Source: Mobula hypostoma (taxonomy: Eukaryota). From it: a stretch of 60,000 nucleotides of DNA. The position numbers and the translations under genes were made by a program. Where the stretch lies: NCBI RefSeq assembly GCF_963921235.1, contig NC_086097.1, positions 140,618,001 through 140,678,000 on the forward strand, written 5' to 3'. The notes under the pieces were generated by a model that was not told the origin of the DNA, did no database searches, and worked only from the letters and a program-made list of their open reading frames with translations. Below are positions 1-46,381 of this stretch, one piece after another (the stretch's first letter is position 1; each line of letters opens with the position of its first letter).

Positions 1-822
1 CTCCTATACTCAATGCTCTGATTAATAAAGGCCAGCATACCAAAAGCTTTCTTCACCACCCTATCCACATGAGATTCCACCTGCAGGGAACTATGCACCA
101 TTATTCCTAGATCCCTCTGTTCTACAGCATTCTTCAATGCCCTACCATTTACCATGTATGTCCTATTTTGATTAGTCCTACCAAAATGTAGCACCTCACA
201 TTTTTCGGCATTAAACTCCATCTGCCATCTTTCAGCCCACCCTTCTAACTGTCCTAAATCTCTCTGCAAGCTTTGAAAACCTACCTCATCATCCACAACA
301 CCACCTATCTTAGTATCATCTGCATACTTACTAATCCAATTTACCACCCCATCATCCAGATCATTAATATATATGACAAACAACATTGGACCCAGTACAG
401 ATCCCTGAGGCACACTGCTACACACCATCCTCCAATCTGACACACAGTTATCCACCACTATTCTCTGGCATCTCCCATCTAGCCACTGCTGAATCCATTT
501 TATTACTTCCATATTAATGCCTAACGATTGAACCTTCCTAACTAACCTTCTGTGTGGAACCTTGTCAAAGGCCTTACTGGTCCATATAGACAACATCTAC
601 TGCTTTACCCTCGTCAACTTTCCTAGTAACCTCATCAAAAAATTCAATAAGGTTTGTCAAACATGACCTATCACGCACAAATCCATGTTGACTGTTCCCA
701 ATCAGACCCTGTCTGTCCAGATAATTATATATACCATCTCTAAGAATACTTTCCATCAATTTACCCACTACTGACGTCAAACTCACAGGCCGATAATTGC
801 CAAGTTTATTCTTAGAACCCTT
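1..822 (-). mobile_element. CR1-clade LINE ORF2 (RT) fragment
   Basis: ORF 574..849 GNYRPVSLTSVVGKLMESIL...QHGF...SCLTNLIEFF...VDVVYMD. It continues to the window edge through PQGSVLGP and KYADD-like motifs. Confidence 0.85.
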
Positions 823-2010
823 TGTGCGTGGTAGGTCATGACTAACCAATCTTATAGAGTTTTTCTAGGAAATTGCCAGGAAAGTGGATGAAGGCCGTGG
901 ATGCTGTCTACATGGACTTTAGTAAGGAATTTGACAAGGTCCAGCGTGGGAGTTCTGGTCAAGACGGTTCAGTTGCTTGGCATTCAGGGTGAGGTAGTGA
1001 ATTGGATTGGACATTGGCTTTGTGGGAGAAGCCAGAGAGTGGTAGTAGAGCCTGTCTGACTGGAGGCCTGTGACTGGTGGAGTGCCGCAGGGATCAGTGC
1101 TAGGCCCTTTGTTGTTTGTCATCCATATCAATGATCTGGATAATAGTATGGTTAACTCGATCAGCAAATTTGTGGATAACACCAAGATTGGGGATGTAGC
1201 GGACAGCAAGGAAGGCTATCATGGCTTGCAGAGGGACCTGTATCAGCTGGAAAAATGGCAGTTGAAATTTAATGCAGACAAGAGTGAGGTTTTGCACTTC
1301 GGTAGGGCCAACCAGGGTAAGTCTTACACAGTAAACAGTAGGGCACTGAGGAGTCTGGTGGAACAGAGAGATCTGAGAATACAGGTCCGTAATTCATTGA
1401 AAGTGGCACCACTGGTAGATAGGGTCATAAAGCTTTCTTATGTTTAAGTTATATAAGAGGTCTGATTTGGAGTACTGTGTGCAACTTTGGTCATCTACCT
1501 ACAGGAAAGATGTAGATAAGATTCAAAGAATGCAGAGAAAATTTACAAGGATGTTGCTGGGTCTGGAAGACCTGAGTTATAAGGAAATATTGAATAGGTT
1601 AGGGCTGTATTCTTCAGAATGTAGAAAATTGAAGGGAAATTTGATAAAGGTACACAAAATTATGAGGGGTTAGATAGGGTAAATACAAGCAGTCTTTTTC
1701 CACTGAAGTTTGATTGGGACTACAACCAGAGGTTATGCGTTAAGGATGAAAAGCAAAAAGTTCAAGGGGATCATGAGGGGAAACTTCTTCACTGAGTGGG
1801 TCATGAGAGTGTGGAATGAGATGCCAGCACAAGTGGTGCTTGCAAGCTCAATTTCAACATTTAAGAGAAGTTTGTACAGGTATATGGATAGTAGGGATAT
1901 GGAGGGCTATGGTCCCAGTGCAAGTCGACAGGAGCAGGAAGTTTAAATGGTTTTGGTATGGGCTAGATGGGCCAAACAGCTTCTTCCTGGGCTGTACTTC
2001 TCCATGAGTC
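819..2010 (+). mobile_element. CR1-clade LINE 3' fragment, joined 5'-to-5' to the previous element
   Basis: ORFs 1070..1447 (GVPQGSVLGPLLF, KFVDNTK), 1440..1673 (LEYCVQLWS) and 1710..1946 (TTTRGY..NFFT..VWN); frameshifted. Confidence 0.85.
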
Positions 2011-2036
2011 TACGTCAAAATGTAAAAAGTACTTAC

Positions 2037-2182
2037 GTAGTCCTTCACTGCCATAGGCCAGGTCAGGTGGCACTTTGATGAAGCGCCTTTCATTTACACA
2101 CATCCCTATCAGAGCTTTGTCCATCCCGGCAATCAGTCGGCCTTTGCCCACAAACACATTGTGAGTGGAACCTCGGTCATAG
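2037..2182 (-). CDS. FKBP9: FKBP9 coding exon 2 (146 nt; rest of PPIase domain 1)
   Basis: Acceptor TCTCTTCCAG (AG = 2184-2183) and donor C|GTAAGT (2036-2031). Reads (S)[48 protein letters not shown], matching FKBP9 ([23 protein letters not shown]) better than FKBP10. Phase fits exon 1. Confidence 0.92.
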
Positions 2183-2754
2183 CTGGAAGAGAAAGACCAA
2201 ATCAGGGAAACTTCAAACTCAGCCCAACAAGAGTTCAGAGATTCTTAAACCTGAGCACAGTCAAAACTTCTAATGAGTCCTTAAGGATGAAAAACAGTCA
2301 CTTCACCTAATTTAATTATCTCATACTTGAACCCCAGGTGGTTACTTTTTCATCCTAATTGACCTTGAAAAGATGGTGGTGAGCTCCCTTCCTGCAATGT
2401 TGCAGACCAAGGAGCTCCTACAATACTGATAGTGAGAAAATTCCAGGTTAGACCGGAGATGAAGAAGAACTGGCAATACATTTCCAAGTCAAGATGGCAA
2501 CCCTAGGTGGCACATGACTTGGCATCTCATTGAATCATGAGCTGTGTAGTGTTTTGCTCAGATGTCACAGAAGGTATCAAGTTCTCGGAGAGTTGCTGGG
2601 AGTTGTTTGTTACTTAAATGAGCGGATAAAATTCTGTCATACTCCTGGACGGACCTTGGATGTCAGGTAGTCACTCACTGCAGGATTCCAGCTCCTGACC
2701 TGTTATCATTGAGTTCAAATTGTTGATCCAGTTGACTTTCATGTCAGTGATGAC

Positions 2755-3060
2755 TTTCTATTCGACCAACAACAGTGGTATCATCAGCAAATTTAAATAT
2801 GGCATTAGAGCTGCGCTTAGCCTCACTATCATAAGAATAAAGCGAGTAGAACAGGGGGCTGAGCAAACAGCTTTGTGGTGAATGGGCTGGGATCTGTAAG
2901 TGAGGAACTTGAGGATCCAATTGCACAAAGAGGTAGTGAGGCCAATGTCTTGAAGCTTATTGACCAGTTTTGAGGGGATGATAGTATTCAATGCTGAGCT
3001 ATAGTCAATGAAGAGCATCCTGATGTATAGATCTTCGCTGTCCAGATGTTCCAGGGTTGC
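2755..3060 (-). mobile_element. Rex1/Babar-type LINE RT fragment
   Basis: [24 protein letters not shown] and [20 protein letters not shown]. Confidence 0.75.
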
Positions 3061-3735
3061 AGTTATTTACTATATCCAGTGCTCCTGGTGTGGCCTGTTC
3101 CATATCAGTGAGACACAACGTAAATTGGGGACCACTTCGTCAAGAAACTTCACGCTGCCACAAATGGTGGTACTTCCTGGTGGCCACCCACTTCAATTCA
3201 ACTTCCCTTTCCCATTCCAATATGTCAACCATGGCCTCCACTACTGCCAAGATAAGGCCACATTCAATCTGAAGAAACAACATCTCATATTCCACTTGTG
3301 TAGACTCCAACCTGATGGCATGAACCTCAAAATCTGTAACTTCTGGTAAATTTCTCCCCCTTCCCCTACTCTTCGTTCATTCCCCATTTTGGTTCCACTC
3401 TCATCCCTTCTCTCCTCACTTGCACATCACCCCCACCCCCCACTGCCCCTCCTCCACTCTCCTCTCCTATCAGATTTCGTCTTCTTTACTTCTTCCACCT
3501 ATCACCTCCCAGCTTCTTACTTCATCCCCTCTCCTTCAACCACCCACCTCCTCCCCACGACCTGGTTTCACCTATCACCTGCCAGCTTGTACTCTTTCCT
3601 CTCCCCCACCCCCCATCTTCTTATTTTGGCTTCTGCCCCCTTCCTTTCCAGTCCTGATAAGGATCTCAGCCCAAACGTTGACTGGTTATTTCACTCCACA
3701 GATGCTGCCTGATTTGCTGAGTTCCTCAATCATTT
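3060..3735 (+). mobile_element. Penelope-like element 3' part (GIY-YIG endonuclease remnant plus 3' repeat)
   Basis: [38 protein letters not shown] and QHLIFHLCRLQPDGMNLKICNFW. Followed by a pyrimidine tract and a degenerate hammerhead-like motif at 3649-3684. Confidence 0.75.
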
Positions 3736-3930
3736 TGTATGTGTCATATAAAAAATGCTTTAATTTAATGGTAAGATCATCAAATCCACAGTGACTTAGC
3801 TGGTTGAATTCAGAACTGGCTTGTCCATAGGAGGCAGAGGGTAGTGTGTGATGGGACTTATTGTGGCTGGAAGTCTGTGACTAATAGTGTTCCACAGGGA
3901 TCCATACTGGCACTTCTGCTATTTATTATA

Positions 3931-4228
3931 AACTCAGTGGCCACTTTATTAGGTTCAATTGTGGAACCATCTGAGCAAATGAGAGAAGGAATATAATTAT
4001 TACAAGTGACAGGGTGGGAAGAGGGTATAATTCTCTTTTGCACACCACTGTTGTAATGCGATGTTATTTGAGTTACTGTCTCCTTCCTGTCAGCTTCAAC
4101 CAGTTTGGCCATTCTCCCACAGAACTGCCGCTCACTTTTTTTATTTTTTGCATCATTCTCTGTTAACGCTAGAGACTGTTGTGTGTAAAAATCCCAAGAG
4201 ATCTGCAGCTTCTGAGATACTTAAACCA
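3931..4228 (-). mobile_element. Tc1/mariner remnant
   Basis: TIR-like end CTCAGTGGCCACTTTATTAGGT at ~3933 and transposase-like MAKLVEADRKETVTQITSHYNSGVQK. Confidence 0.65.
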
Positions 4229-4392
4229 TGGAGTATGGGGGGGAATGAGGGAGAAATCTCAATGGAGCCTGTCAAATGCTGAGGACCTGAATGGGGTGGA
4301 TGTGGAGAGTGTGTTTCCTGTGGTGGGAGTGGGGAAAACGGTCAATTAGGATGCAAAAGTAACCACCTGGGGTTCAAGAATGAGATAATTAC

Positions 4393-4532
4393 GCAGTCCT
4401 TCACTGCCATAGGCCAAGTCAGGCGGCACTTTGATGAAGCGCCTTTCATTTACACACATCCCTATGAGAGCTTTGTCCATCCCGGCAATCAGTCCGCCTT
4501 TGCCCACATTGTGAGTGAAACCCCAATCATAG
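4393..4532 (-). pseudogene. FKBP9: Duplicated FKBP9 exon 2 (140 nt; pseudo-exon or alternative exon)
   Basis: Near-identical to 2037..2182, with the same TCTCTTCCAG acceptor and a C|GTAATT donor. Reads (S)[46 protein letters not shown]: a 6-nt in-frame deletion and no stop codon. Confidence 0.85.
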
Positions 4533-4589
4533 CTGGAAGAGAAAGACTGGCAAAGGGTCCACAAACTTTTTCTTGCAACTGTGTATATG

Positions 4590-5260
4590 GCAAAAAAAAT
4601 GGCACATGGAGCTTATCTTGGCCAAATGTGAAGAGCTGCACTTTAAGATGTCAAAGGTACAGAGACACTACACTTATATCGATAAGACCTTTAACAGTGT
4701 TGATGTTCAAAGGGATGTTGGGCTCTAAGTCTTAGCTCATTGAAGTGGCTGCACAGGTTAATGGGGTGGTAAAGAAGGCACAAGGCATTATTTAAGGAAC
4801 TGAGCTCAAGTGTTGGGACACAATGTTACACCTTTCTAAAACTAGTTAGGCTGAAGCTCGAGCATTGCATTCATTTCTGATTGTATCATTACTGGAAGGA
4901 TGTGAAGGGTTTGGTGAGAGTACAGAAGAGGTTTTTATCAGGATGCTCCCTGGATTAAAGGGCATGTGCTCTAAGGGTAGGTTAGTCAAACTTCTTGGGT
5001 TGATTTCTCTGGAGTGGCAAAAGTTGAGTGGATCTGATAGAGGTTTATAAGATTACGAGTAACATGTATAGAATACCAATATCTTTTTCCCCGGAACTGA
5101 AATGTCCAATACTAAAAGCCATTCATTTAAGGTGAGAGGGGGTAAGTTCAAAGGAGATGTATGGGTGCTTGGAATGCTCTGCCAGGAGTGGTGATGGAGG
5201 CAAAAATGATAGTGATATTCAAGGGACCCCTTAGAAAGGCACATGAATGTGCAGGACATG
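4590..5260 (+). mobile_element. Degraded CR1 3' fragment (continuation of the piece at ~3780-3930)
   Basis: KWHMEL.., GVVKKAQG, FIRMLPGLKGM..GRLVKL-like motifs, heavily decayed. Confidence 0.6.
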
Positions 5261-5380
5261 AGGAAATCTGCAGATGCTAGAATTTCAAGCAACACACATA
5301 AAAATTGCAGCTGCGTTCACCAGCAATTTTTATGAATGTGCAGGAAATGGAAGGATATTGACATTGTGTTGGCTGAAAGG

Positions 5381-5770
5381 AATCAGAATCAGGTTTTTTA
5401 TCACCAGCATGTGACGTGAAATTTGTTAATTTAGCAGCAGCAATACATAATGCAATACATAATATAGATGAAAAACTAAAATAATAAGTAAATCTTATTC
5501 AGTATACTTTATACAGTATATGTATATGACATTAAAAATCGTGCAAAAAACAGAAATACTATATATTAAAAAAAGTGAGGTGGTGTCCAAGGGTTCAATG
5601 TCCATTTAGGAATCAGATGGCAGAGGGGAAGAAGCTGTTCCTGAGCTGCTGAGTGTGTGCCTTCAGGCTTCTGTACCTCCTACCTGATGGTAACAGTGAG
5701 AAAAAGGCATGCCCTGGGTGCTGGAGGTCCTTAATAATGGACGCTGCCTTTCTGAGATACTGGTCCCTGA
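5381..5770 (-). mobile_element. Rex1/Babar-type LINE 3' end with (CTGATT)n tail
   Basis: YLRKAASIIKDLQHPGHAFFSLLPSGRRYRSLKAHTQQLRNSFFPSAI. Tail AATCAGAATCAG at 5381. Same family as 27505-29397. Confidence 0.8.
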
Positions 5771-7021
5771 AGATTAGGTTAGTTGAGCATTTGGTGACTA
5801 ATTTAATTAGTTTGGCACAACATTGCAGACTGAAAGGCTTGTTCCTGTGCCATACTGCTCGATGTTCTCCCTGTGACCATCCGGTGATGCAGTTTTCTTC
5901 CACAACTGCAGGTCATTAATTCAATTATATGCATAAATTGTCTCCAGTCTGGGAGGGTGCTGAGAAGATCACAGAAAGGCAGAATGTGAAAAGTGAGAGA
6001 AAGGGTTAGAGCAAAATGAGTGAAGGTTTGGGAAAGTTGAGACTGTTACAGTATGTTGTATGGAATATGGACAACTAAGCAAGGAAGCTTATTAATGAAG
6101 TAAAGATGGTTGACACTGTCCCAAGGATCTCCTGTGGACGCCCCGAGGCTGGAATGATTAACTGAATAACCACAACTACTTTCCTTTGTGTAAGACGACT
6201 CCAACCACTGGGGTGTTTTCCCTTCGATACCCATTGACTTCAGGAATACTGAATCCCACCGTCAAATGTTGCCCTCAAGTCAAGGGAGATGTAAACAGGA
6301 TGAAATTTGCAAAGCTGGAGAACATAATTCAACTACAACCCAAGCAGCTCCCCACAGAGTCAAATTCTGTTCCCGCCCCCTAATAACAGAAAGCTGCCGC
6401 GTGGACACGGCTCAATTAACCGCTACCTTCAAATCCACATCACCGTTCTTCAGGGAGGAGACAGGGTTTTGTAAGGCTTTTGCCCCGGATCTCCTCACCT
6501 CTGGGATCTGCGCAACCCAGGGTTCCCTTCAGCCGGATCTCCACGACCCCCCGGAATCCACTCACCGCCCCCCCCACCCCGATCTCAATGGTCTCCCGGG
6601 TCCCGCGACCGCCAAAGTTGGGTACACAATCTGTGGAATCTCGTCCTATCCAATCTCGTATTTTCCCGGTCCCAGGATCAACAACTCCGATGACCTTAGC
6701 TGTCCCGAGATCTCCAAACCCTGGACCACCACGCAAGATACCCCGATCTCCAGACCAGCAGACCTGGCATCTCCTCTCCCTCAGTATCTCCTGGACCTAG
6801 GATCACCCAGGTATCGTAACCATCTCCGGGGCGCCTTGAACTCCAGAATAATCAGTTAATCCCACCCCCCATCCCCATCACTGGAGTAAAAGGCGCGGGA
6901 CCGATATCCCTTTTCGATCTCTGGATCATCAGACTGGGACACCTCCCACCACCACAACCCACCACGATCCCAGGATTAGCAGACACGGTTCTCCCGGCCC
7001 GGGCGGGTGTGAAGGCGGTAC

Positions 7022-7224
7022 CTGGAGTCGAAACCCTTTCCCCCGGCCAGGGTTCCCAGGTAATGGTAGCGGACGAAATCCCCTGGCTGCACCGCCCGTA
7101 AGCACTCCCGTGGCTCGAACCGCTTCTCCACCACCACATCATCCACCGGCACCGGGGGCGCCTTTCCCGCTACCCCGAGCAGTAACGCGACCACCAGTGT
7201 CAATTCCATCCCGCCACCCATCAT
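7022..7224 (-). CDS. FKBP9: FKBP9 coding exon 1 (signal peptide and start of PPIase domain 1)
   Basis: MMGGGMELTLVVALLLGVAGKAPPVPVDDVVVEKRFEPRECLRAVQPGDFVRYHYLGTLAGGKGFDS; donor AG|GTACC at 7021. The start codon is uncertain (in-frame ATGs at 7278, 7224, 7221, 7209). Confidence 0.9.
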
Positions 7225-7762
7225 CGACCCGGCCCGACACGACCGAGATTGACGACGTGGGCTGCAAAGCGGAGCCATCCGGGGCGAGGCTATTGTAACC
7301 CCGCCCGCGACTTCACATTGGACACAGCCGATCCAAAGTGATGGATAGGTGCAGCTGATTGGTGATCGGGATGTCAATTATCCCGCGTGGTTGTCGGGAT
7401 AGAATCCCAGAGGAGCCAAGAGATCAGCCGTCTGCCGGCGGAGTGGGGCTACCCCGGAGATCCATTCGTGCAAGGGGGTTCAATTGGCAGAGGGGGGTCC
7501 AGTGCAACGAGACAGAGATCTAGTGGCTGAAGAGGGATACAGAGGAATTAGAGCGAGAACTGAGTGGTGGAGCGGAAATCTTGTAGTGCTAGAGGGAATC
7601 CAGTCCGACTAGAGCGGACATCCACCAAAACTAGAATAGGGATCCATCGGCAAAGTGGAGATCCAGTAGGGGCCCAGTGGCGCTGGTAGAGCGGATCAGG
7701 GATCAAGCGGGGATACAGCGGCCGTCGAGCAGTGATTGAGCGGCAAGGCGGGTTCAGACGGG
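7225..7762. promoter_or_regulatory. Putative bidirectional CpG-island promoter and 5' UTRs of FKBP9 and CRTAP
   Basis: 538 bp between divergent ATGs, inside a CpG-rich block (~6400-8250). GC box CCCCGCCC at 7299-7306; ATTGG (CCAAT) at 7317, 7358 and 7483; GACGTGG at 7254-7260. Confidence 0.75.
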
Positions 7763-8209
7763 ATGCGGCCGGACGCTATTTTTACCCTGCTCCTGGTGTG
7801 CTGTGGCGCGGGGCTCGCCCAGTATGAGAAGTATAGTTTCCGCAGCTTCCCGCGGGACGAGCTGATGCCGCTGGAATCGGCTTATCGACACGCACTGGAT
7901 CAGTACACGGCAGAGAACTGGCAGGAGTGCGTGGAGTTCCTGGAGATGAGCCTGAGACTCCACCGCTTGCTTCGAGACAGTGAGGCTTTTTGCAACCTCA
8001 ACTGCAGCACGGTGCGGTCCCAAGAACCCTCTCACTTCGGCCGCTTCACCGAGCTGCATCTCTTTAGCAACATCATGAGCCGAGCCCAGTGCCTGAGGAG
8101 ATGCAAGCAAGGACTGCCCGCCTTTCGCCAGTCCCAGCCCAGCCGGGAGACGCTGGAGGAGTTCGAGAAGCGCGAAGTCTACAAGTTTCTCCAGTTTGCC
8201 TACTTTAAG
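7763..8209 (+). CDS. CRTAP: CRTAP exon 1 (cartilage-associated protein)
   Basis: ATG 7763; signal peptide, then [29 protein letters not shown]...SEAFCNLNC...[18 protein letters not shown]...KFLQFAYFK; donor AAG|GTGAGA. Confidence 0.96.
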
Positions 8210-8410: not shown

Positions 8411-9862
8411 GTTACAAGAAAAAGTTTGTGAACCCTTTACAATATAATTACTCATAAAATGTGGCCTTATCTTCATGTATGTTACAATAATAGACAAGCA
8501 CAATCTGCTTAAACTAATAACAAGCAATTGTACTTTTCAGCTCTTTATTGAATGCATTGTTTCATCATTCATAGTCCAGACTGGAAAAGTATGTGAACCC
8601 TTGTATTTAATAACTGGTAGAACCTCCTTTAGCAGCAATAACCTCCATCAAGTGTTTCCTGTGGCTGCTGATCAGACTTGCACAACAGCGGGGAAGAAGT
8701 TTAGACCATTCCTCCAGACCAAACTGTTCCAGGGATACCTTGCATGAACAGCCCTTTTCAAGTCATGCCTCAGTATCTCAATTAGATTAAGGTCTGGATT
8801 CTGACTTGGCCATTACAGAACATGCATTTTCTTCTTTAAGCTATTCTACTGTTGATTTACTCATGTTTCAGATCATTGTTTTGTTGCATCATCCAACTTC
8901 TATTAAGCTTCAGGTGATGGACCACCACCCTGACGTTCTCCTGTAAAATGTCTCGATATGATTTTTAATCCATTGTTGTCTCAACAATTGCAAGCTGTCC
9001 AAGCCCAAGGCAGCAAAGCAGCCCCAAATGTTGATGCTTCTTTACCATGCTTCACAGTTGGGATGTGATTTTGCTGTTCGTGTGCAGAGCCCTTTCTCCT
9101 GCAAATATTTCTGCCAAGAAGTTAAACTTTTGTCTCATCTGTTCACTAAGCATTGTCCCAGAAGCACTGTGGAACACCCAGGTGGTCTTTTGCAAATCTG
9201 AGATGTGCAGCAGTGTTTGTTTTTGGAGAGCAGTGGTTTCCTCCATGGTGTCCTTCCATGAACACCATTCTTGTTCAGTGTTTTACATACAGAAGACACA
9301 TGACCAGAGACTTTAGCAAGTTATAGAGATTTCTGCAGGTCTTTTAATCTTACCCTTAGGTTCTTTTTCACCTCTTTCATCATTGCACATTGTGCTCTTT
9401 GCAGGATGCCCACTCCTAGGGAGAGTAGCAATGATACTGAACTTCCTCCATTTGTAGACAGTCTTTCTTGCTATAGACTGATGAAAAGTCTTTAGAAAGT
9501 TTTTATAGCCTTTTCCAGCTTCTTGCATCCGTACAATTCTTCTAAGGTCCTCTGAAAGTTGTTTTCAGAGGAATTTAGAAGATTGGGGACTTCCAATCTC
9601 ATCTCCTTGATTGGAATACCTGGCCCCAAGTATCTTTTGTGGAAGGCATTACCCTAGAAGTTGACATACCTTTTTTTGGACCTAGACTGAGATTGTTTAA
9701 ATGGTGCATTCAGTATCAATGAGAAGTACAATTGTGTGTGTCATTAGTTCAGGAAGATTGTGTTAGTCTATTATTGGGACAGGTGAAGATAAGACCACAT
9801 TATGAGTAATTATTGCAGAAGACCAGGTAATTGCAAAGGGTTCACAAACTTTTTCTTGCAAC
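8411..9862 (-). mobile_element. Tc1-family DNA transposon with both TIRs and a decayed transposase
   Basis: Left end GTTACAAGAAAAAGTTTGTGAACCCTTT is the reverse complement of the right end AAAGGGTTCACAAACTTTTTCTTGCAAC; the inverted match extends inward (ATAATTACTCATAA..GTGG). Transposase N-terminus EAGKGYK..HQS..VYKWRKF..TLPRSGHPAK. Confidence 0.88.
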
Positions 9863-12800
9863 TCAATGCTTTCTCTGTCCCTGGCGCTGTGAAGACTAGA
9901 GCTGGCCACATTGGCAAGAAACACTCCACTCAGCAGCATCCTGTTAGATATTGCTTGGCTGATGGTGAGCTGATCCCTCGTCAGGACCTTTACACAGAAC
10001 CCGAGACTCTGTACCAACACAACAGTCCTTGAATATGTCATGGGGTGAGACTGTCACCCTGATTCTTCCGTGTATGTCAAGGTGGTTAGGAAGGATATAC
10101 AGAAGTGTGTTAAGGTTCATTTGAGTGGCTACATAACACAGAGCTGTGGTCTGTTCCATGGACACTCTGAGATAAACATCACTACTGCTTGAAGATGATC
10201 AATTCAGCAAAAGATACACTTTGGTCTGCCAGAACTTATTGGTGTTCCAGTGAAAAGAGTTGTTCACAGGTACAAAAGCCGGTTCCTTGGTGTACTGTGA
10301 TCAAACTGACCATCAGATACCTGCTCATACTAATCCCATTTTCCATCACTTCTCCTTAGATTTCCATGCCACAGAGTGTCCCACCACCCTTTTCACACTT
10401 TGTGTTCCTGATTTAAATCTCTTGTATGAAAAAAAAAATTCTTCCTCAAGTCTGCCTCCCCTTAACATCATTTTCCTGCCACAACAAATTACTATGTTCC
10501 ATTGTTATCCGAAGTCCATCAATTTCTATATGGAAGAAACTCAATGAATGGGATTCTAAGATGGGGAACTTCAGAGGTTTACTGCACTTTGAGTTCAAAT
10601 TTCAAAGTAAACTTATCAAAGTTCATACAGTATATGTCACAATATTCCACGAGATTCATTTCCTTGCAGCCATTCACAGTAAATACAGAGAAATGTAACA
10701 GAAACACACAACAAAGATGGACAAACAACCAATGTGCAAGAGACAAGCTGTGCAAATAAAAGAACAAAGCAATAATAATAAATATTGTGAATGTAATTGA
10801 AGAGTCCTTGAAAACGAGTCCACAAGTTGTGGGATCTGTGAAGAAACTTAGAATTTCAGCCCTAACTGAATTACCCTTTATTTTGAGACTATGACCACTT
10901 TCTGCATTTGGAAGCCTTAGCCGGGGAAGCATCCACAGTTTGCATACTCTGTCAAGCACTTTAGGATATTTGTTTCCATAAGGTCACTGATTGTTGTTAA
11001 ATTCTAAATAGAGACCTAGCCTGTTCAATCTCTCTCTCAAGTAAAAGACCCATGATACCAGGGAACAGGACAATGAATATTCCATTACACAGATTCTCTA
11101 GCAAAGTATATCATTATTCAGCAAGGAAACCAAAGTTCTATAAGGCTCCAGAAGTCCGATTTCACCAGGGTGCCTGAGAATTTCAATGATCCAAGGTTTA
11201 GGAAAAAAAGAATCGACAGTAGATAAAATGGCTACGTTCAATGCAACCTTGGTTACTTGTACACCCAAGGAAAACTGTACTCTTATACTCAGGTATGCTT
11301 TATTGTATTAAAGGGCAACATGGCATTGTCCTTCCTAAGTACCTGCTGCATTTTCATGCTAGTTTTCAGTGACATTTGTACCAGAAACCCAAGTTCCACT
11401 TAACATCACCATTTCCCATCATTCACCAACTAACAGTCTGTATTGCTATGCTGAAGTAGAAAGCCTCACATTTTTCCATGTTCTCTTCCATTGCTCTGTG
11501 ATTACCACTTTACTGTCATCCTTTTCCCCTTGAATCACAATTAGTTCCTCCATGAAACTGTAGATACCTATAATTAAATCCACTGTTGCATGCAATGCAC
11601 CTCCACTGCTTTTAGATCATTGGAAAAAAAAAAGGGGATTTGAAGATCAGTACCTCAGAGCTAGCCCAAAGCTCATGGTGTACAGTACATAACGGCAGTG
11701 ATCATAAGATATAGGAGCAGAATTAGCCCATTTGGCCCATTCAGTCATAGTTGATTCTTTTATTTCCCCTCCTCACCCCTTCTCTCCTTAACCTTTGATG
11801 CAATGGCCAATCAAAAACCCAATCTCTGCCTCAAGTACACCCAGCGACCTGGCCTCCACAGCTGCCTGTGCTAACAAATTCACCACCCTCTGACTAGACA
11901 AATCTCTCCGCATCTCTGTTTTAAATGGACGCCCCTCTATCCTGAAGCTGTGCCCTCTTGTCCTAAACTCCCCCACCATGGGAAACATCCTTTCCACATC
12001 TTCTGTCTAGGCCTTTCAACATTCAAAAAGTTTCAATGAGATACTCCCCACCCCCCATCCTTCCAAATTTCAGTGAATACAGGCCCAGAGCCATCAAATG
12101 TTTCTCGTATGATAACCCTTTCATTCCCAGAATCATCCTTGTGACCCTCCTCTGAAACCTCTCCAATGCCAGCACATCTTTTCTTAGATAGGAAGCCCAA
12201 AACTGTTTACAATACTCAAGGGACTCAAGGTGAGGCCTCACCAGTGCCTTATAAAGCCTCGGTATCCCATTCCTGCTATTGTAGTCTAGACCTCTTGAAA
12301 TGAATGCTAACATTGCATTTGCCTCCTCAACACTGATTCAACCTTCAGGGTGTTCTGCACAAGAACTCCCAGGTCCCTTTGCATCTCAGATTTTTGGATT
12401 TTCTTGCCATTTAGAAAATAGTCTGTACATTTATTTCTACAATCGAAGTGCATGACCATGCATTTTCCAACATTGTATTTCATTTGCCACTTTCTCCTGT
12501 CCAAGTCCTTCTGCAGCCATCTTGTTTGCTCAAAACTACCTGCTGCTCTATCAATCTTCATATCCTCTGCAAACTTAGCAACAAAGCCATCTATTCCATC
12601 ATCTAAATCATGGATATACAGCATAAAAAGCAGTCCCTACACCCACCCCTGCGAACACCACTAGTCACTGGCAGTCAATCAAAAAAAGATCCTTTTATTC
12701 ACACTCGCTGCCTCCTACCAATCAGCTAATGCTCTAATCATGCTAGTAACTTTCCTGTAATTTCATGGGCTTTATAAGCTGCCGCACGTGTGAGACCTTG

Positions 12801-15800
12801 TCAAAGGCCTTCTGAAAATCCAAATATACAACATCACTGCATCCCCTTTATCTGTCCTACTTGTAATCTCCTCAAAGACTTCCAACAGGTTCGTCAGGCA
12901 AGATTTTCCCTCAAGGAAACCATGATAATTTTGTCCTATCTTGTCCCATGTCACCAAGTACTCCATAACCTCATCCTTAACAATTAACTCCTTCCCAACC
13001 GCTGATGCAAGGCTAACTGGTCTATAATTTCCTTTTTGCTGCCTCCCTCCTTTCTTAGAGTAGAGTGAGATTTGCAATTTTCCAGTCCTCCAGAACCATG
13101 TCTGAGTCCAATTATTCTTGAAATATCATTAGTAATGCCTTCACAATCTCTATTGCTGCCTCTTTCAGAGCCCCAGGGTGCAGTTCATCTGGTCCAGGTG
13201 ACTTTTGTGCCTTTAGGTCTTACAACTTTTTGAGTGCCTTCTAACTTGTAATGGTAACTGCATTCACTTCTCTTCCCTCACATCCTACAACATCTGGCAC
13301 ACTGCTAGTGTCTTCCGTACACATATACACATACTTGAAAAAGCTTCCTTTACCCACCTTGATATTGTTTGCTAGCTTGCTTTCGTATTTCATCTTTTCC
13401 CTGCTAATGATTCTTTTAGTTGCTCTCTGTAGGGTTTTAAAAGCTTCCCAATCCTCTGTCTTCCCACTAATTTTTGCTTTGATATATACTCTCTTTCACT
13501 TTTACATTAGCTATGACTTCCCTTGTCAGCCACAGTTGTACTATTTTGCCATTTGAGTACTACTTTGTTTTTGGGATACAAAATCTCCTTCCAACTTACT
13601 TTGGCCAACTCCTCTCTCATACCACTGTATTTTCCTTTACTCCACTGAAAAACTGCTATGTCAGAATTTACTTCCTTCCTATCAAATTTCAAATTGAGCT
13701 CAATCCTATCTTGATCAATGTCTTCTTAGTGTTCCTTTATCTTAAGCTCCCCAATCACCTCTGGTTCTTTGCATAACACCCAATCCAGTATAGCTAATAG
13801 TAGGCTCAAAGACAACTGCTCTAAAGAGCCATCTCATGGGCATTCAACAAATTCACTCTTGAGATCCACTACCAACCTGATTCTCCCAATCGACCTGCAT
13901 TTTAAAATCTCCCATGACAATCATAACATTGCTCTTTTGACTCGCCTTTTCTATTTACTGTGGTAATCTGTAGTCCACCTCCCAGTTACTGTTTGGAGGC
14001 CTGTTTATAACTGCCATCAGGTACCCCTGCAGTTTCTTAACTCAACCCACAGGGATTCAACATCTTCCAATCCCATGTCACAACTTTCTAATGATTTGAT
14101 AACATGTTTTACCAGCAGAGCCATGTCACCCCCTCTTCCTATCCCTCCAATACAATGTGAAACCTTGCATATTCAGCTCCCCACTACATCCATCCTTCAG
14201 ACACAATTCAGTGATGGCCACAACATCGTACCCAACAGTTTGTAAAAGTTCCACAAGACTATGCACATTATTTCTTGTACTCTGTGCATTGAGATACAAC
14301 ACTTCTGCATCCCTAATGCACTGAAACTCACCCTGCTAGCTGCAATTTTGCCTTATCATCTGCCTTCCCTTCCTGACAGTCTGACTGTACACTATCTTTG
14401 TTTTTTTAAACCATCCGTCCTGTCCCAGGTCCCTTCACTCCAGTTCCCAGCCCCCTGCCAAATTAGGTTAAACCCTCTGTAACAGCTCTAACAAACCTGC
14501 CTGCCAGAATATTGGTCACGCCTCAGGCTCAGGTGCAACCCGTCCCTTTTGTATAAGTCATACCTTCTCCAGAAGAGATCCCAGTGATCCAAGAACCTGA
14601 AGCCATGCCCCCTGCACCGGCTTCTCAGCCATGTATTGATCTGCCAAATCATCCTGTTTCTACCCTCACTGGCACTTGGTACAAGTAGCAGTCCAGAAAT
14701 AACCTCACTGGAGGTCCTGCTTCTCAGCTTTCTGAGTAGCTCTCCAAATTCTATCTTCCAAGACCTCATTGCTGTTCCTTCCTGTGTCATTGGTACCAAT
14801 ATGTACCAAGACATCTGGGTGCTCTCCTTCCCTCTCCAAAATGCTGAAGATGTGATGCAAGACATCATTGACCCTGAGACATAGGAGCAGAATTGAGTCC
14901 ACTGAGTCTGCACCGCCATTCTGTCCTGGCTGGTCCTGGATCCTCCTCAACCCCACGCACCTGCCTTCTCACCATAACGTAGTTTCCTGATTGGTCAGGA
15001 CATCAATCAATTATCGCTTTAAACATAACCACGTTCTTGGCCTCCACAGCTGTCTGACAGAGCATTCCACAGGTTTACTACTCTGGCTCCAAAAAGAAGA
15101 AAAAAAGTCCTCCTTACCTCTGTTCTGAAGGGTCGTCCCTCAATTTCGGGGCTGTGCCCTCTAGTTCTGAACACCCGCACAACAGGAAACATTGTCTCCA
15201 CATCCACCTTATCTAGTCCTTTCAACAGGTTTCAATAAGATCCAACACCGCCCCCCCCCACATTCTTTAAAATTACAGTGAATACAGGCCTAAAGCTGCC
15301 AAATGCTTCTCATATGTTAACCCCTTCATTCCCAGAATCATCCTTGGGAAACTCCTCTGGACTCTCCAATGACAACACATCCTTTCTGGGATATAGGCCC
15401 CAAAACTGTTTACGATACGCCAAGTGCAGCCCAACTAGTGTCTTATAACGCCTCAGCATTATCTCTTTGTTTTATATTGTATTCCCCTTGAAATGAATGC
15501 CAACATTGCATTTGCCTTCTTTACCACAGAGTGAACCTGTAAATTAACCTTCTGGGAATCTTGCACAATGACTCCCAAGTCCCTTTGTACCTCTGATGTT
15601 TGAATTTTCTCTCCATTTAGATAATAGTCTGCACTATTGTTCCTTTTATCAAAATGCATCATCGTACATTTCCCAACACTGTATTCCATCTGCCCCTTTT
15701 TTTGCCCATTCTTCCAATTTGTCCAAGTCCTGTTACAATCGCATTGCTTCCTTAGCACTGCCTACCCCTCCACCTATCTTGGTATCATCCACAAACTTTG

Positions 15801-18800
15801 TCACAAAGCCATCAATTCCATTATCCAAATCACTGACAACCAATATGAAAAGTAGCGGTCGTAGTACTGATGCCTGAGGAACACCACTAGTCACTGGCAG
15901 CCAACCAGAAAAGGTCCCCTTTATTCTTGCTCGCTGCCTCCTCCATGTCAGCTATTCCTCTATCCATGCCAGTATCTTTCCTATACTGCCATGGGATTTT
16001 ATCTTGTTCAGCAGCCTCGTGTGGCACCTTATCAAATGCCTTCTGAAAATTCAAGTAAATGACATCCACTGCTTCTCCTTTGTCCACGATGCTTGTTACT
16101 TCCTTAAAGAACTCAACAGATTTGTCAAAGACAAGATTTCCCTTCGCAGAAACCATGTTAAATTTGACTTATTTTATCATTAGTTTCCAAGTATCTCAAA
16201 ACCTCATCCTTAATATTGGACTCCAACACTCTCCCAACCACTGAGGTACAGCTAAATGGCCTGCAATTTCTTTTGCCTTCCTCCCTTCTTAAAGAGAAGG
16301 TAACATTTGTAATTTTCCAGTCCTCCAGAACCATGCTAGAATTCTTAAAGTCCTTAACTTCCCTGTCAGCCACGGTTGCCTATCCCTGACATTTGAGAAC
16401 TACTTCTGTGGGACATACCTATCCTGCGTCTTGTGAACTATTCCCAGAAACTTCAGCCATCTCTGGTCTGCTGTCAAAATGCCAGTATCCTCCTCCAATC
16501 CACCCTGGCAAGCTCCTCTCTCATTCCTCTGTAATTCCCTTTATTCTATTGTGATACTGATACTTGTGACTTATGCTTCTCCCTCTCAAATTGCAGTTCC
16601 AGGGATTCCTTTACCTTAAGCTCCCTAATAAGATCTGGGTTATTATACAACACCCAATCTAAGATAGCCTTTCCCCAAGTTGGCACAAGCACAAGCTGCT
16701 CTGAAAAGCCATCTCATAGGCACCCAACAGATTCACTCTCTTGCGATCCGACACCAGTCTGATTTTCCCAATCCCTTTGCATATTGAAGTCCTCCATTAC
16801 AATTGTGACATTACCCTTATTACATGCCGTTTCCAGCTCCCTTTGCAAACTCAACCCTGCATCTTGACTGCTATTTGGAGGCCTATATATGTGATTCCCA
16901 TAATAGTTTTTTTTTAACCCTTGCAATTTCTTAACTCCACTCAGAAAGATTCAACATTTCTTCGACCCTGTGTCACCTCTTTCTAAAGATGTAATTCCAT
17001 CACCTACCAACAGAGCGACACCATTGCCTTTGTCTTCCTGCCTATCCTTTTAGTACAAGGTATATCCTTTGATATTAAGCTCCCAACTATGACCTTCTTT
17101 CAGCCATGACTCAGTGATCCCCACAACGTCATACTGACCAATCTCTTAATTGTGCGACAAGTTCATCCACCTTATTCCAAATACTATGTGCATTTAAATA
17201 CAGCACCTCCAGTCCTGCATTCTTCACCCTTTTGAATTTTGCTGCTGTGGTATAATTTAATTCTTTGCACTGTTTGCATTTGTACCCAGTCATTGGCTTG
17301 TCCTTCCTTACATCCACGATCTACTTGTAAACCTGCTGGCTCATCCTCAGCTCTATCATCCTGGTTCCCATCCCCCTGCCATATTAGTTTAAACCACTCC
17401 CAACAGCTCTAGTAAACCTGCTTGCAAAGATATTGGTACCCTTCAGATTCAAATGCAAGCTTTTGCAGAGGTGCCACCTACCCCAGAAGAGGTCCCAATG
17501 ATCCAGAATCTGAATCCCTGACCCCTACTCCAATTCTTCAGCCACACATTTATTTGCCACCTCATTCTATTCCTATCCTCACTGTCGTGTGACACAGGCA
17601 GCAATCCTGAGATTACTACTCTTGAGGTCCTGCTTCTCAACTTCCTTCCTAACTCCCTGTACTCTGTTTTCAGGACCTGCTTCCTTTCTCTACCCATGTT
17701 GTTGGTACCAATATGTATGACTTCTGGCTGCTCACCCTCCCTTTTCAGGATATTGTGGATGTGTTCAGAAACATAGAAACATAGAAAATAGGTGCAGGAG
17801 TAGGCCATTCGGCCCTTCGAGCCTGCACCGCCATTTATTATGATCATGGCTGATCCTCCAACTCAGAACCCCGCCCCAGCCTTCCCTCCATACCCCCTGA
17901 CCCCCGTAGCCACAAGGGCCATATCTAACTCCCTCTTAAATATAGCCAATGAACTGGCCTCAACTGTTTCCTGTGGCAGAGAATTCCACAGATTCACCAC
18001 TCTCTGTGTGAAGAAGTTTTTCCTAATCTCGGTCCTAAAAGGCTTCCCCTCTATCCTCAAACTGTGGCCCCTCGTTCTGGACTTCCCCAACATCGGGAAC
18101 AATCTTCCTGCATCTAGCCTGTCCAATCCCTTTAGGATCTTATACGTTTCAATCAGATCCCCCCTCAATCTTCTAAATTCCAACGAGTACAAGCCCAGTT
18201 CATCCAGTCTTTCTTCATATGAAAGTCCTGCCATCCCAGGAATTAATCTGGTGAACCTTCTTTGTACTCCCTCTATGGCAAGGATGTCTTTCCTCAGATT
18301 AGGGGACCAAAACTGCACACAATACTCCAGGTGTGGTCTCACCAAGGCCTTGTACAACTGCAGTAGTACCTCCCTGCTCCTGTACTCGAATCCTCTCGCT
18401 ATAAATGCCAGCATACCATTCGCCTTTTTCACCGCCTGCTGCACCTGCATGCCCACTTTCAATGACTGGTGTATAATGACTCCCAGGTCTCGTTGCACCT
18501 CCCCTTTTCCTAATTGGCCACCATTCTGTTTTCCTATTTTTGCCACCAAAGTGGATAACTTCACATTTATCCACATTAAATTGCATCTGCCATGAATTTG
18601 CCCACTCACCCAACCTATCCAAGTCACCCTGCATCCTCTTAGCATCCTCCTCACAGCTAACACTGCCACCCAGCTTCGTGTCATCCGCAAACTTGGAGAT
18701 GCTGCATTTAATTCCCTCATCCAAGTCATTAATATATATTGTAAACAACTGGGGTCCCAGCACTGAGCCTTGCGGTACCCCACTAGTCACCGCCTGCCAT

Positions 18801-19657
18801 TCTGAAAAGGTTCCGTTTATTCCCACTCTTTGCTTCCTGTCTGCTAACCAATTCTCCACCCACACCAATACCTTACCCCCAATACCGTGTGCTTTAAGTT
18901 TGCACACTAATCTCCTGTGTGGGACCTTGTCAAAAGCCTTTTGAAAATCCAAATATACCACATCCACTGGTTCTCCCCTATCCACTCTACTAGTTACATC
19001 CTCAAAAAATTCTATGAGATTCGTCAGACATGATTTTCCTTTCACAAATCCATGCTGACTTTGTCCGATGATTTCACCGCTTTCCAAATGTGCTGTTATC
19101 ACATCCTTGATAACTGACTCCAGCAGTTTCCCCACCACCGATGTTAGGTTAACCGGTCTATAATTCCCCGGTTTCTCTCTCCCTCCTTTTTTAAAAAGTG
19201 GAGTTACATTAGCCACCCTCCAATCCTCAGGAACTAGTCCAGAATCTAACGAGTTTTGAAAAATTATCACTAATGCATCCACTATTTCTTGGGCTATTTC
19301 CTTTCTTTCTTTTTAAATCTTTTTATTGAATAAGTATACAAAAAGGTAAACCATATAAACATTAATACAATGTTAAAATATAATAAAATTCCAGAAGGTA
19401 TCAATACCAAAAAAAATACTACAAACAATGTAATTTAAACATAAAAAACCAAGATAACATAATAGTATACTAAATTTTATATATATATCAATGGAAAAAA
19501 AAGAAAAAAAAAACCCCAAAAAAAACCCACCGTGCAACTAACTAAAAGCAAAGCAAAGCAATGGGCTAACTTGAAACCAAACAGAGTTAAACTTAAAATC
19601 ACGTCCTCAATCCCGACCTCCATTAAAAACAGTGAAAAAAAACAAGAAGGGTATGTA

Positions 19658-21397
19658 TTACATTAAATGAAAGTATCGAATAAAAGGTCCCCAAATCTGT
19701 TCAAATTTAAATGAAGAATCATAAAGGTTGCTTCTAATTTTCTCCAGATTCAAACATAAAATCGTCTGAGAGAACCAAAAAAAGGTAGTTGGAGCATTAA
19801 GCTCTTTCCAATGTTGTAAAATACATCTTTTTGCCATTAAAGTAAGAAATGCGATCATTCTACGGGCTGAAGGGGAAAGATTACTAGAAATTTTAGGAAG
19901 TCCAAAGATAGCAGTAATAGGGTGAGGAGAGATATCTATATTTAATACCTTAGAAATAATATTAAAAATATCTCTCCAAAAAGTTTCCAAAGTAGGACAA
20001 GACCAAAACATATGAGTTAAAGAGGCTATCTGCCCCGAACATCTATCACAAAAAGGATTAATATGCGAGTAAAAACGCGCTAACTTATCTTTGGACATAT
20101 GTGCTCTATGAACCACTTTAAATTGAATTAGGGAATGTTTAGCACAAATAGAGGAAGTATTAACTAATTGTAAAATCTGCCCCCAATCATCCACAGAAAT
20201 GGTGAGCCCCAATTCCTGTTCCCAATCTACCCTAATCTTATCAAATGGAGCTTTCCTAAGTTTCATAATAATATTATAAATCATAGCCGATGCACCTTTC
20301 TGACATGGATTGAGGTTAATTATCGAATCTAAAATATATGTAGGAGGAAGCATTGGAAAGGAAGAAAGTATGGTACTTAGGAAATTTCTAACTTGTAAAT
20401 ATCTAAAAAAATGTATTCTTGATAAATTATATTTATTAGATAATTGTTCAAAAGACATAAGGGAACCATCTAAAAATAAATCCAAAAACCGTAAAATACC
20501 CTTAGTCTTCCAGGTTTGAAAAGCGCGATCCGTAAAAGAGGGAGGAAAAAATATGTTACCTAAAATAGGAATCGCTAACCCGAATTGATTAAGATCAAAA
20601 AATTTTCTGAATTGAAACCAAATGCGCAAAGCATATTTAACTATCGGGTTAGAGACCTGCTTAAGGCGTTTCGAATCAAAAGGGAGAGAGGAACCTAAAA
20701 TAGAGCCAAGTGTATAACCCTGAACAGATTGTAGTTCCAATGCTACCCATTTAGGAATAGATAGTATATCCTGATCAAGTAACCAAAATTTCATATGTCG
20801 AATATTAATAGCCCAATAATAGAATCTAAAATTAGGTAATGCTAAACCTCCATCTCTCTTAGCTTTCTGTAAATGTATTTTACCCAGTCTCGGATTCTTA
20901 TTCTGCCAAATAAATGAAGAAATTTTAGAGTCAACTTTATCAAAAAAAGATTTTGGAACAAAAATTGGTAATGCCTGAAACACATTTAAAAATTTTGGCA
21001 AAAAAAACATCTTAACTGCATTAATACGACCAATCAAAGTTAAATATAAGGGAAACCATTTAGATGAAAGTTGAGTAATATGGTCTATTAATGGTAAAAA
21101 GTTAATCTTAAATAAATCTTTATATTTACAAGTAATTTTAATCCCAAGATAAGAAAAATAATTATCAATCAATTTAAATGGAAATTTATAATATAAGGGA
21201 AGATGTTTACTAATCGGAAAGAGTTCACTCTTACTAAGATTTAATTTATAACCTGAAAAAAAACCAAGTTGTGCTAATAACTCTAAAACAGCAGGATTGG
21301 ATTTCTCAGGATTAGAAATATATAACAGTAAATCATCAGCATAGAGTGATAATTTATGGAACTTTAATCCCCGAGTTATCTCAGTAATATTTGAAGA
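19658..21397 (-). pseudogene. L1 ORF2 C-terminal part (RT YADD to zinc knuckle), open frame
   Basis: HKLSLYADDLLLY (YADD 21343-21332), SGYKLNLSKSELF, YLGI, GGLALPNF and CDRC..LTHMFWSC in one uninterrupted frame. Confidence 0.88.
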
Positions 21398-21843
21398 TTA
21401 AGATCTCCGCCCCAGATCAATGAAAACTCGTTCAAATTCGGAAACTGATTAAACAATGATTTATAAAATTCCGGACAATCCATATTAGGAGCATAAACAT
21501 TAACCAAAACTACTTTTTTATTAAATAGTAAACCACTAACCAATAAAAATCTACCATTCGGATCAGAAATAATATCCTGTTGTATAAAAGTAACTGAGGA
21601 ATCTATAAAAATAGAGACGCCTCGAATCTTAGCATTGGAGTTCGAATGAAATTGTTGTCCCTTCCAGAATTTAAAAAAACGTAGTCTGTCCCCCCTCCGT
21701 ACATGGGTCTCTTGTAAAAATAAAATTTGTGCTTTAAGTCTCCGGAACACTTTAAAAACTTTATTCCTTTTAATAGGATGATTAAGACCGTTAGTATTCC
21801 AGGAGACAAAATTAATGATAGACTCCATAAATCCTAAAGTCAA
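21376..21843 (-). pseudogene. L1 ORF2 endonuclease N-half, truncated at GGDLN
   Basis: FVSWNTNGLNHPIKR, ILFLQETH, LVNVYAPN, WGGDLN, then an out-of-frame join. Confidence 0.88.
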
Positions 21844-22553
21844 CCCACATCGAGGGGGATTGACGATAGGCTCGACCCACGAACCCGGAGAGGAAACAGA
21901 ACATACAAAAGATACCGGGAAAAAGGACGCAACCAGTACTTCAATAATGTATATAGCCCAAAGAGAAAAAAACTAAAACGTGAAGCCCCTCCCACCACCC
22001 GCCGCCCCAAGACCCCAAGGCAAAATCTAAAGCAGACCCGCCGGAAAGAAGCAAGCGCTAAAACTACCCCCATGACTTCCGGTATACGCTCCCTAAAAAA
22101 AAAGGTATAAATATGAAAAAGATCAGCTAATTGTAAAACAGTAAAAAAGTAAAAAAAAGGTAACTCAATTAAAATACACACACAACAGAACAAAAGCCAG
22201 AAAATATATATTAAAAAAAAACCACAATAGACCCCAAACCCATGAATAAACAAAAAAACAACAAGAATAAATAAGATTATTAACATAAACTAGTTATAAA
22301 AAGCAAAAGAAAATAAAATTTTAAAAAAACTACAAAATTTAAGGCCACACAGGAAATACGTAAGATGACAAACAGGAAGTAACCACCCAAAATCCCCTGG
22401 GAAAAGAAAGAAATGACGCAGTTAAAAAGAAAGTTTAGCAACCATATTAAGAAATCAAAAAAATAAACTTTTCTGCCCAAATAGGGCACGAAAAAGTTAA
22501 AACCAACCAATTCACAGCCTCCGATCAACGGAGATAATTAAAAAAAATAGCAA

Positions 22554-45771: not shown

Positions 45772-46381
45772 TGTAATGCGCAGGGCTATCGGCTTGTGTT
45801 TATCTAGGGGAAACCCCGTCTGCCCGCCAAACTGTGTCTCACGGTTGCGTAGTTGCTGTGTAATGCCACCTGGTACAAACTCATACATCAAATATCAGAC
45901 AGCACACAATCTACAATTTACAGATTACACTTTATAAGTCTTACTGGAACTATGTAATTAATAGAGATACAATATAAAAGGGAAAGTAAAAGGCACCAAG
46001 CTTATCAGAGTTCAACCACTTCGTGCACAACCATTGGAGCTCAATTAACAGGGTCCTCTTTCCACCATTCAATCTCCTCCGACCCCCTCGACTCGCCGCT
46101 CGGGGGTCGACCAGAGGGCGTCCAGCACTTCCTTCCTCTTCGGTTCTCCTCCCGAAAACCTGCCAAACCACCCGGTTCCCAGAATATCACCCACAAAAAG
46201 AATAACATGGACACTTATTGCTTCATCCCCTCTCTTATCAATAATATAACCCAAACAAGCGGGAGAGAGAGAACTCCTTACATCGCAGTTATTATTACAG
46301 AAAAGCCATTTTTATTATAACATAAGAAAGAAGCCCTTTTATTAGCGTTAGCAGTAACATAAAAGAAGTAACCACCTTACA
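45772..46381 (-). repeat. 5' LTR of the Gypsy element (610 bp, TGTAA...TTACA)
   Basis: Minus-strand termini TGTAAGG and GCATTACA, directly followed by the PBS. Confidence 0.85.

What the first reader, a model, noticed from the sequence alone, without database searches (positions are those of the whole stretch)
4340..4585. Second copy of FKBP9 exon 2 in intron 1 that keeps frame and both splice sites
Seen: 4393-4532 duplicates exon 2 (2037-2182) together with its acceptor. It has no stop codon, an in-frame 6-nt deletion (loss of FV), three replacements (R>W, S>F, R>G) and a GTAATT donor. The 140-nt and 146-nt copies have the same phase, so either alone keeps frame, while including both shifts it. 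Inference: this is the layout of a nascent mutually exclusive or poison (NMD) exon affecting PPIase domain 1. The radical substitutions could equally indicate a decaying pseudo-exon.
Basis: partly seen in the sequence, partly recalled or inferred. Interest (0 to 1): 0.7.

Follow-up and report, generated by a model that had tools for sequence, protein, structure and literature searches.

The report
Decaying exon copy from DNA repair
A ray's FKBP9 gene carries a real second copy of exon 2 inside intron 1, patched together with an inverted intron piece and a transposon end, most likely by an old DNA-break repair, and it is likely an unused, decaying pseudo-exon rather than an alternative exon.

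Summary
The duplicate is real: a related organism's DNA contig spans it with the same 6-nt deletion, so it is no assembly artefact. It is the middle of a 244-bp mosaic: 52 bp inverted from 2313-2364, then exon 2 with only 15 nt of acceptor and 4 nt of donor, then 34 bp of a Tc1-like end. This fits template-switching repair at a transposon. 'Both splice sites' holds only for AG and GT. The donor lacks both -1G and +5G (9 of 9 real FKBP9 donors have one; U1 duplex -1.7 versus -6.5 to -8.3 kcal/mol), and the branch motif was not copied. The donor is also predicted to be buried in a 52-bp stem with its own template. The relative's copy changes a Gly and a Cys found in 144 of 144 homologues. An open frame is expected by chance 24-58% of the time. 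The one mRNA contig tested uses the native exon. Against this reading: a mild synonymous excess among older changes (p about 0.01-0.07), and contigs cannot exclude rare inclusion. Verdict: likely neutral pseudo-exon; a low-level poison exon is not excluded.

The parts
7022..7278 (-). FKBP9 exon 1, coding part (257 nt, ends in phase 2)
   Evidence: Exact spliced match to P0006; covered by the mRNA contig in 4 of 4 runs
4550..4585 (-). Outer 34 bp of a Tc1-like terminal inverted repeat (4550-4583) with its TA (4584-4585); the rest of the element is not found in 1-7300
   Evidence: 97% to the element end at 9833-9863 and 94-100% to ends in 8 of 8 loci compared; no other piece of that element family at this site
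4533..4547 (-). Copied 15 nt of the exon 2 acceptor (pyrimidine tract and AG); no TNA branch motif in 80 nt upstream; a rival AG ends at -15
4393..4532 (-). Exon 2 copy, 140 nt, open frame; 9 substitutions (6 synonymous, 3 replacement) and a 6-nt deletion between TGTG microrepeats
   Evidence: present in organism B with 6 differences in 231 nt and no gap
4387..4392 (-). Hybrid donor TGC|GTAATT, without -1G and without +5G; predicted U1 duplex -1.7 kcal/mol
4340..4391 (+). 52-bp inverted copy of 2313-2364, joined to the exon copy by a 3-nt microhomology (4389-4391); holds a cryptic donor after 4367 (predicted -7.4 kcal/mol, frame-shifting); predicted to pair with its source in the pre-mRNA from donor position +2
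4243..4333 (+). Left flank: truncated dispersed repeat (about 80% to many genomic copies; LINE-like by my recall, not tested against a library)
2313..2364 (-). Intron 1 source of the inverted piece, 115 nt from the copied block; the other arm of the predicted stem
2033..2197 (-). Source block: native exon 2 (2037-2182) with 15 nt of acceptor and 4 nt of donor; its YTNAY branch motif (A at -20, position 2202) lies just outside the copied part

Best explanation
The intron holds a 244-bp patchwork of an exon 2 copy, an inverted intron piece and a Tc1-like transposon end, likely written by one template-switching repair of a DNA break, and the exon copy is likely skipped by the spliceosome and decaying neutrally. 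Inferred order, read on the gene strand: synthesis started in or at a resident Tc1-like element, kept 34 bp of its end, jumped 2.3 kb to copy 165 nt around exon 2, switched strand at a 3-nt microhomology to copy 52 nt lying 115 nt away, and rejoined the far side with the rest of the element lost. Shown: the mosaic, its presence in a second organism, the lost branch motif and the degraded donor consensus. Predicted: weak U1 pairing and a 52-bp stem over the donor. Inferred: the repair route, skipping and neutrality.
For: Mosaic with two nearby templates in opposite orientation and microhomology. Organism B contig spans 4349-4579 unbroken. An organism C contig matches the transposon end and right flank (4550-4770; 4 other letters, 2 gaps) and runs on inward for 98 letters unlike the copy, as expected if the transposon came first. 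Donor: 9 of 9 real donors have -1G or +5G and score -6.5 to -8.3; the copy has neither and scores -1.7. Weak exonic and weak intronic donor halves tend not to co-occur (PMC4671708, passages). Acceptor: 8 of 9 real acceptors have a TNA at -15 to -45, the copy none. Stem of -84.5 kcal/mol; 48 of 52 bases paired to the source in the 2.6-kb minimum-energy fold. Since the two lineages split, 4 of 6 changes are replacements (neutral expectation, p about 0.5), including G>E and C>Y at positions invariant in 144 of 144 homologues. The copy diverged 6/140 against 10/386 in flanking contigs (Fisher p 0.39). None of 144 homologue alignments has a gap in this block. The 2939-nt X15 mRNA contig joins exon 3 to an exon 2 with native letters at three diagnostic sites.
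Against: Synonymous excess: 6 of 9 window differences are silent (p 0.011-0.023). After allowing, from contig difference counts, that 1-2 of them arose in the native exon, the changes shared by both lineages are 4 of 6 or 5 of 7 silent (p 0.014-0.067; 6 of 8, p 0.005-0.010, if none is reassigned). Frame, AG and GT are intact in both lineages. Real exon 6 also lacks a TNA, and real exon 4 has an AG at -16, so the acceptor is not disqualified. The Pfam FKBP_C score falls only from 48.9 to 45.0 bits. Organism C's right flank is as close to the window as B's, so its outgroup status is not secure, and its 98 letters were not seen. Energies are model predictions, and U1 could bind before the partner 2 kb downstream is transcribed.
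Confidence: 0.78

Rival explanations
1. The copy is a poison exon used at low level: it is sometimes included before exon 2, most likely through the stronger cryptic donor after 4367, and sends the transcript to nonsense-mediated decay; the long stem would gate it.
For: Every copy-plus-exon-2 combination tested (4 of 4) has a premature stop. The acceptor keeps an 18/21 pyrimidine tract. The cryptic donor scores like real donors (-7.4). A poison exon needs no protein constraint, so the radical changes do not count against it. AG and GT persist in organism B.
Against: No branch motif; both donors lie inside the predicted stem. Keeping frame, AG and GT in both lineages is expected by chance in 24-58% of neutral runs (the deletion was not modelled).
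Confidence: 0.13
2. The copy was briefly used in frame and under purifying selection after it arose, then lost its function.
For: Synonymous excess among the changes shared by both lineages.
Against: The same period holds the FV deletion, S>F and R>G. The in-frame length of the deletion is set by TGTG microrepeats 6 nt apart. The weak donor and missing branch motif date from the insertion junctions themselves. Counts are small and partly unpolarised.
Confidence: 0.05
3. The copy is a working mutually exclusive alternative to exon 2 that yields an FKBP9 with an altered first PPIase domain.
For: Same phase, open frame in both lineages, AG and GT present.
Against: Weakest donor of the gene by more than 4 kcal/mol. 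A 2.2-kb gap gives no steric exclusion, and there is one stem rather than competing ones. Invariant residues are hit in organism B. All 3 listed records of the genus in the 12-member cluster (P0006, P0126, P0133) use the native exon.
Confidence: 0.03
4. The duplicate is an assembly artefact.
For: Repeat-rich intron; no raw reads of the window's own organism were laid.
Against: An independent organism holds the copy across both inner junctions, with the same deletion and its own substitutions.
Confidence: 0.01

Closest known systems
Single-copy Pack-TIRs made by gap filling (Tan et al. 2021, PMC8277862; abstract passage, 12 passages and section 8 read)
   Same: Host sequence captured at a TIR transposon from a template under 5 kb away in cis, single copy, short microhomology, transposon apparently present without the capture in another lineage.
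   Different: Only one transposon end (34 bp) remains, so it is not flanked by TIRs. It has two templates in opposite orientation. The breakpoint is near the terminus with most of the element lost, which that paper expects for abortive repair after excision rather than for its commoner internal-break route.
MMBIR/FoSTeS locally templated insertions (Osia et al. 2021, PMC8421209; abstract only)
   Same: Short insertion copied from nearby templates with strand switching at microhomology; occurs as germline variation.
   Different: Here apparently inherited by two lineages, and it happens to carry a whole coding exon. The enzymatic route was not tested.
Tandem duplicated, mutually exclusive exons (PMC9741552, PMC6071210, PMC9013439; abstracts only)
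   Same: A homologous exon pair of equal phase in one gene, with an intronic complementary pair nearby.
   Different: Those exons are mostly ancient, expressed, with conservative changes, and use competing selector/docking pairings. This copy is young, has drastic changes, lost its flanking signals, and has one stem predicted to cover its own donor.

Membership tests
FKBP9 gene (host) | Four FKBP domains and EF hands; named orthologue | tested here: met
   P0006, named FKBP9, is encoded exactly by 10 exons at this locus; PF00254
Mutually exclusive duplicated exon | Homologous exon of equal phase with open frame | tested here: met
Mutually exclusive duplicated exon | Splice signals comparable to real exons | tested here: not met
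   Donor -1.7 versus -6.5 to -8.3, no -1G or +5G; no TNA; energies are predictions
Mutually exclusive duplicated exon | Key residues kept, changes conservative | tested here: not met
   FV deletion (0 of 144 homologues gapped); G>E and C>Y at invariant sites in organism B
Mutually exclusive duplicated exon | Exclusion mechanism (steric, or competing RNA pairings) | tested here: not met
   2.2-kb spacing; one stem only
Mutually exclusive duplicated exon | Junction reads for each alternative | tested here: inconclusive
   Only contigs were available; the native exon is joined in X15; contigs drop rare forms
Poison (NMD) exon | Inclusion gives a premature stop upstream of later junctions | tested here: met
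   4 of 4 copy-plus-exon-2 combinations
Poison (NMD) exon | Inclusion seen, rising on NMD inhibition | not testable with these tools
   No raw reads or NMD-block data offered
Pack-TIR (gap-filling type) | Captured sequence flanked by both ends of one TIR element | tested here: not met
   One 34-bp end only
Pack-TIR (gap-filling type) | Nearby cis template and microhomology | tested here: met
   2.0-2.4 kb; 3-nt microhomology at the inner switch; none clear at the two outer junctions
Pack-TIR (gap-filling type) | Transposon without the capture at the orthologous site of outgroups | tested here: inconclusive
   Organism C contig has the end and flank, then 98 unlike letters; letters unseen, outgroup status inferred
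Locally templated insertion | Insert pieces match nearby sequence, with a switch of template or strand | tested here: met

The most novel reading that the evidence does not exclude
One repair event delivered an exon duplicate together with its own antisense arm: the 52-bp inverted piece starts at donor position +2 and pairs with its template 2 kb downstream. The duplicate would be born silenced by RNA structure, which would let it persist, and opening the stem would switch on a poison exon that tunes FKBP9 in these rays.
Probability: 0.08. Interest if true: 0.55.

Novelty: new member of a known kind. Interest (0 to 1): 0.22.

Why it matters
As a neutral pseudo-exon it is a clean, dated example of how a repair event at a DNA transposon copies a whole coding exon within a gene, and of why an intact frame with AG and GT does not show an alternative exon. 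It would matter more if the inverted piece proved to be what keeps the copy silent: template switching would then make a duplicated exon and its regulatory RNA stem in one step, testable with a minigene.

Tried and rejected
Sequencing-run search: no RNA holder listed on record; X15-X18 are RNA by guess, though X18's contig joins exon 4 to exon 3 without the intron. First lay at 85% likeness on 10 kb: swamped by repeats; the joint table showed no exon junction and the copy's bins could not be read. Depth arithmetic: the exon 1, exon 3 and exon 2 5' bins equal the single mRNA contig in 11 of 12 cells; X15's exon 2 bin has 4.03 against 3.55, unexplained. Second lay: no contig with copy-specific letters in the 1 RNA-guess run laid (depth 0 at 4350-4389 and 4510-4529), and none in organisms C and D, where only the source-locus contig covers the copy. 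These blanks do not prove absence. Five of the nine native-versus-copy differences were missing's difference table for a reason I could not find, so polarity rests on per-contig counts. No relatives' genomes are held. No protein among the 144 fetched carries any of 6 copy-specific motifs; no whole-database search with the copy was run. A fold of the copy-containing domain was not attempted, since it needs a spliced sequence. FKBP10 was considered as the host and rejected. Earlier-findings look-ups returned nothing. Literature: no paper on this copy among the 15 listed of 24 or the 10 listed of 35, listings only; not an exhaustive search. No MaxEnt-type scorer was available, so donor strength rests on duplex energy and the gene's own 9 introns.

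Full report
Observation. The minus-strand gene is FKBP9: record P0006 (labelled Mobula hypostoma, on a contig of the same length as G000:C1) is reproduced exactly by ten exons, from 7278 in the window to about 16 kb left of it. Window 4393-4532 is a copy of exon 2 (2037-2182), with 9 substitutions and a 6-nt deletion. The copy alone keeps phase; copy plus exon 2 stops at residue 149 of the P0006 frame. A genome search finds the source, the copy and a 72% paralogue, and no third copy among 40 scored of 44 candidates.

Anatomy. 4340-4391 is the reverse complement of 2313-2364 (50 of 52 identical). 4389-4547 is a direct copy of 2033-2197, and the two pieces share a 3-nt microhomology. 4550-4583 is the outer 34 bp of a Tc1-like inverted repeat followed by TA; it matches element ends in 8 of 8 loci compared and the element at 8411-9863. 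The name Tc1-like rests on the long inverted repeats and TA ends and on my recall; no transposase was tested. Nothing else of the element was found in 1-7300. The left flank is a truncated dispersed repeat. The two templates lie 115 nt apart and 2.0-2.4 kb from the insert. The 6-nt deletion sits between TGTG microrepeats, so its in-frame length needs no selection.

Reality and age. In organism B one 231-nt contig spans 4349-4579 with six other letters and no gap, and a second links the left flank to the inverted piece. The insertion, with its deletion, is therefore older than the split of the two lineages and no artefact. In organism C one contig holds the two templates 115 nt apart, as in the source locus. 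Another matches the transposon end and right flank (4 other letters and 2 gaps in 221) and continues inward for 98 letters unlike the copy. Organism D also has the end and flank. This suggests the transposon came first. C's outgroup status is inferred from word shares; its flank is as close to the window as B's, and the 98 letters were not shown.

Splice signals. Only 15 nt of acceptor were copied. The native YTNAY with A at -20 was left behind, the 80 nt upstream of the copy hold no TNA, and a new AG ends at -15. Human branch points follow yUnAy, mostly 21-34 nt from the 3' end (PMC2367711, abstract). Among the gene's own introns 8 of 9 acceptors have a TNA at -15 to -45; exon 6 has none and exon 4 has an AG at -16, so the acceptor is weak but not excluded. 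The donor is the clearer failure: it lacks both -1G and +5G, while 9 of 9 real donors have at least one, and its predicted U1 duplex is -1.7 against -6.5 to -8.3 kcal/mol. Exonic and intronic donor halves compensate each other in mammals (PMC4671708, passages). The inverted piece brings a stronger cryptic donor after 4367 (-7.4), which gives a 166-nt frame-shifting exon. In the pre-mRNA the inverted piece, starting at donor position +2, is complementary to its template: duplex -84.5 kcal/mol, with 48 of 52 bases paired in the minimum-energy fold of 2,621 nt. Both donors would be covered; exon 2's own branch motif and AG lie outside this stem.

Selection. B's copy differs from the window's at six sites: R>C, C>Y, G>E, two silent changes, and Arg where the window has Trp. 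The Gly and Cys are invariant in 144 of 144 aligned homologues (120 and 24, some close relatives), and none of the 144 has a gap in this block. Post-split changes are 4 replacements to 2 silent, as neutrality predicts (p about 0.5). The copy diverged no more slowly than its flanks (6/140 against 10/386, p 0.39). Neutral simulation keeps an open frame with AG and GT in both lineages in 24-58% of runs, substitutions only. One result runs against me: 6 of the 9 window differences are silent (p 0.011-0.023). Contig counts imply that 1-2 of these arose in the native exon, which leaves 4 of 6 or 5 of 7 shared changes silent (p 0.014-0.067). That is a weak hint of early constraint, hard to square with the deletion, S>F and R>G from the same period.

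Transcripts. Four runs guessed to be RNA each hold one 2.0-2.9-kb contig that covers exon 3. In X15 the same contig continues into exon 2 with native letters at three diagnostic sites, at depth 22.4 of 22.4. The three listed annotated proteins of the genus use the native exon. Contigs drop rare forms, so minor inclusion stays untested.

Mechanism and comparison. The best account is a break in or at the transposon repaired by synthesis with two template switches, leaving an exon-shaped passenger that is skipped and decays. It works like the gap filling described for single-copy Pack-TIRs: templates mostly within 5 kb, median microhomology of 2 bp, transposon present in outgroups (PMC8277862, section 8). 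It is not a Pack-TIR, because one end is gone. It fits locally templated insertions (PMC8421209, abstract). It fails three tested features of mutually exclusive duplicated exons, which are mostly ancient, conservative and, where structure-driven, built on competing pairings (abstracts of PMC9741552 and PMC6071210). No supplements were read.

Verdict. A real feature, a new member of a known kind. Neutral pseudo-exon 0.78, low-level poison exon 0.13, early use then decay 0.05, working alternative exon 0.03. Interest 0.22. The self-silencing stem is the one unusual point and deserves a minigene test.

Noticed in passing
window 7278 (-) and 7763-8209 (+): CRTAP exon 1 starts head to head with FKBP9, start codons about 485 bp apart; the best solved match is cartilage-associated protein, E 1.4e-64.
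   Followed up: partly
L022-L024 (G000:C91:66490001-66520000): A paralogue with the same exon layout, probably FKBP10 (most exons match an FKBP10-named record better than P0006), with a short CRTAP-like hit on the opposite strand about 6 kb beyond its exon 1; probably the mirrored FKBP10/P3H4 pair (name recalled).
   Followed up: partly
window 8411-9863: A decayed 1.45-kb Tc1-like element with long inverted repeats in CRTAP intron 1, of the same family as the 34-bp end at the insertion.
   Followed up: partly
FKBP9 exons 2-8: Exons alternate 146 and 190 nt, one pair per PPIase domain; annotated ray isoform P0097 lacks exactly one pair (112 aa) in frame.
   Followed up: no
window 4334-4347: The left junction resembles the inner continuation of the transposon repeat over a few bases, which could be a further short template hop; too short to test.
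   Followed up: no
window 12000-26000 and 46000-52000: Long blocks of strong GC skew (down to -0.34, up to +0.37), probably strand-biased repeats.
   Followed up: no
window 259-442 and 1053-1236: Inverted pair of repeat fragments in FKBP9 intron 2, 184 nt, 71% complementary.
   Followed up: no
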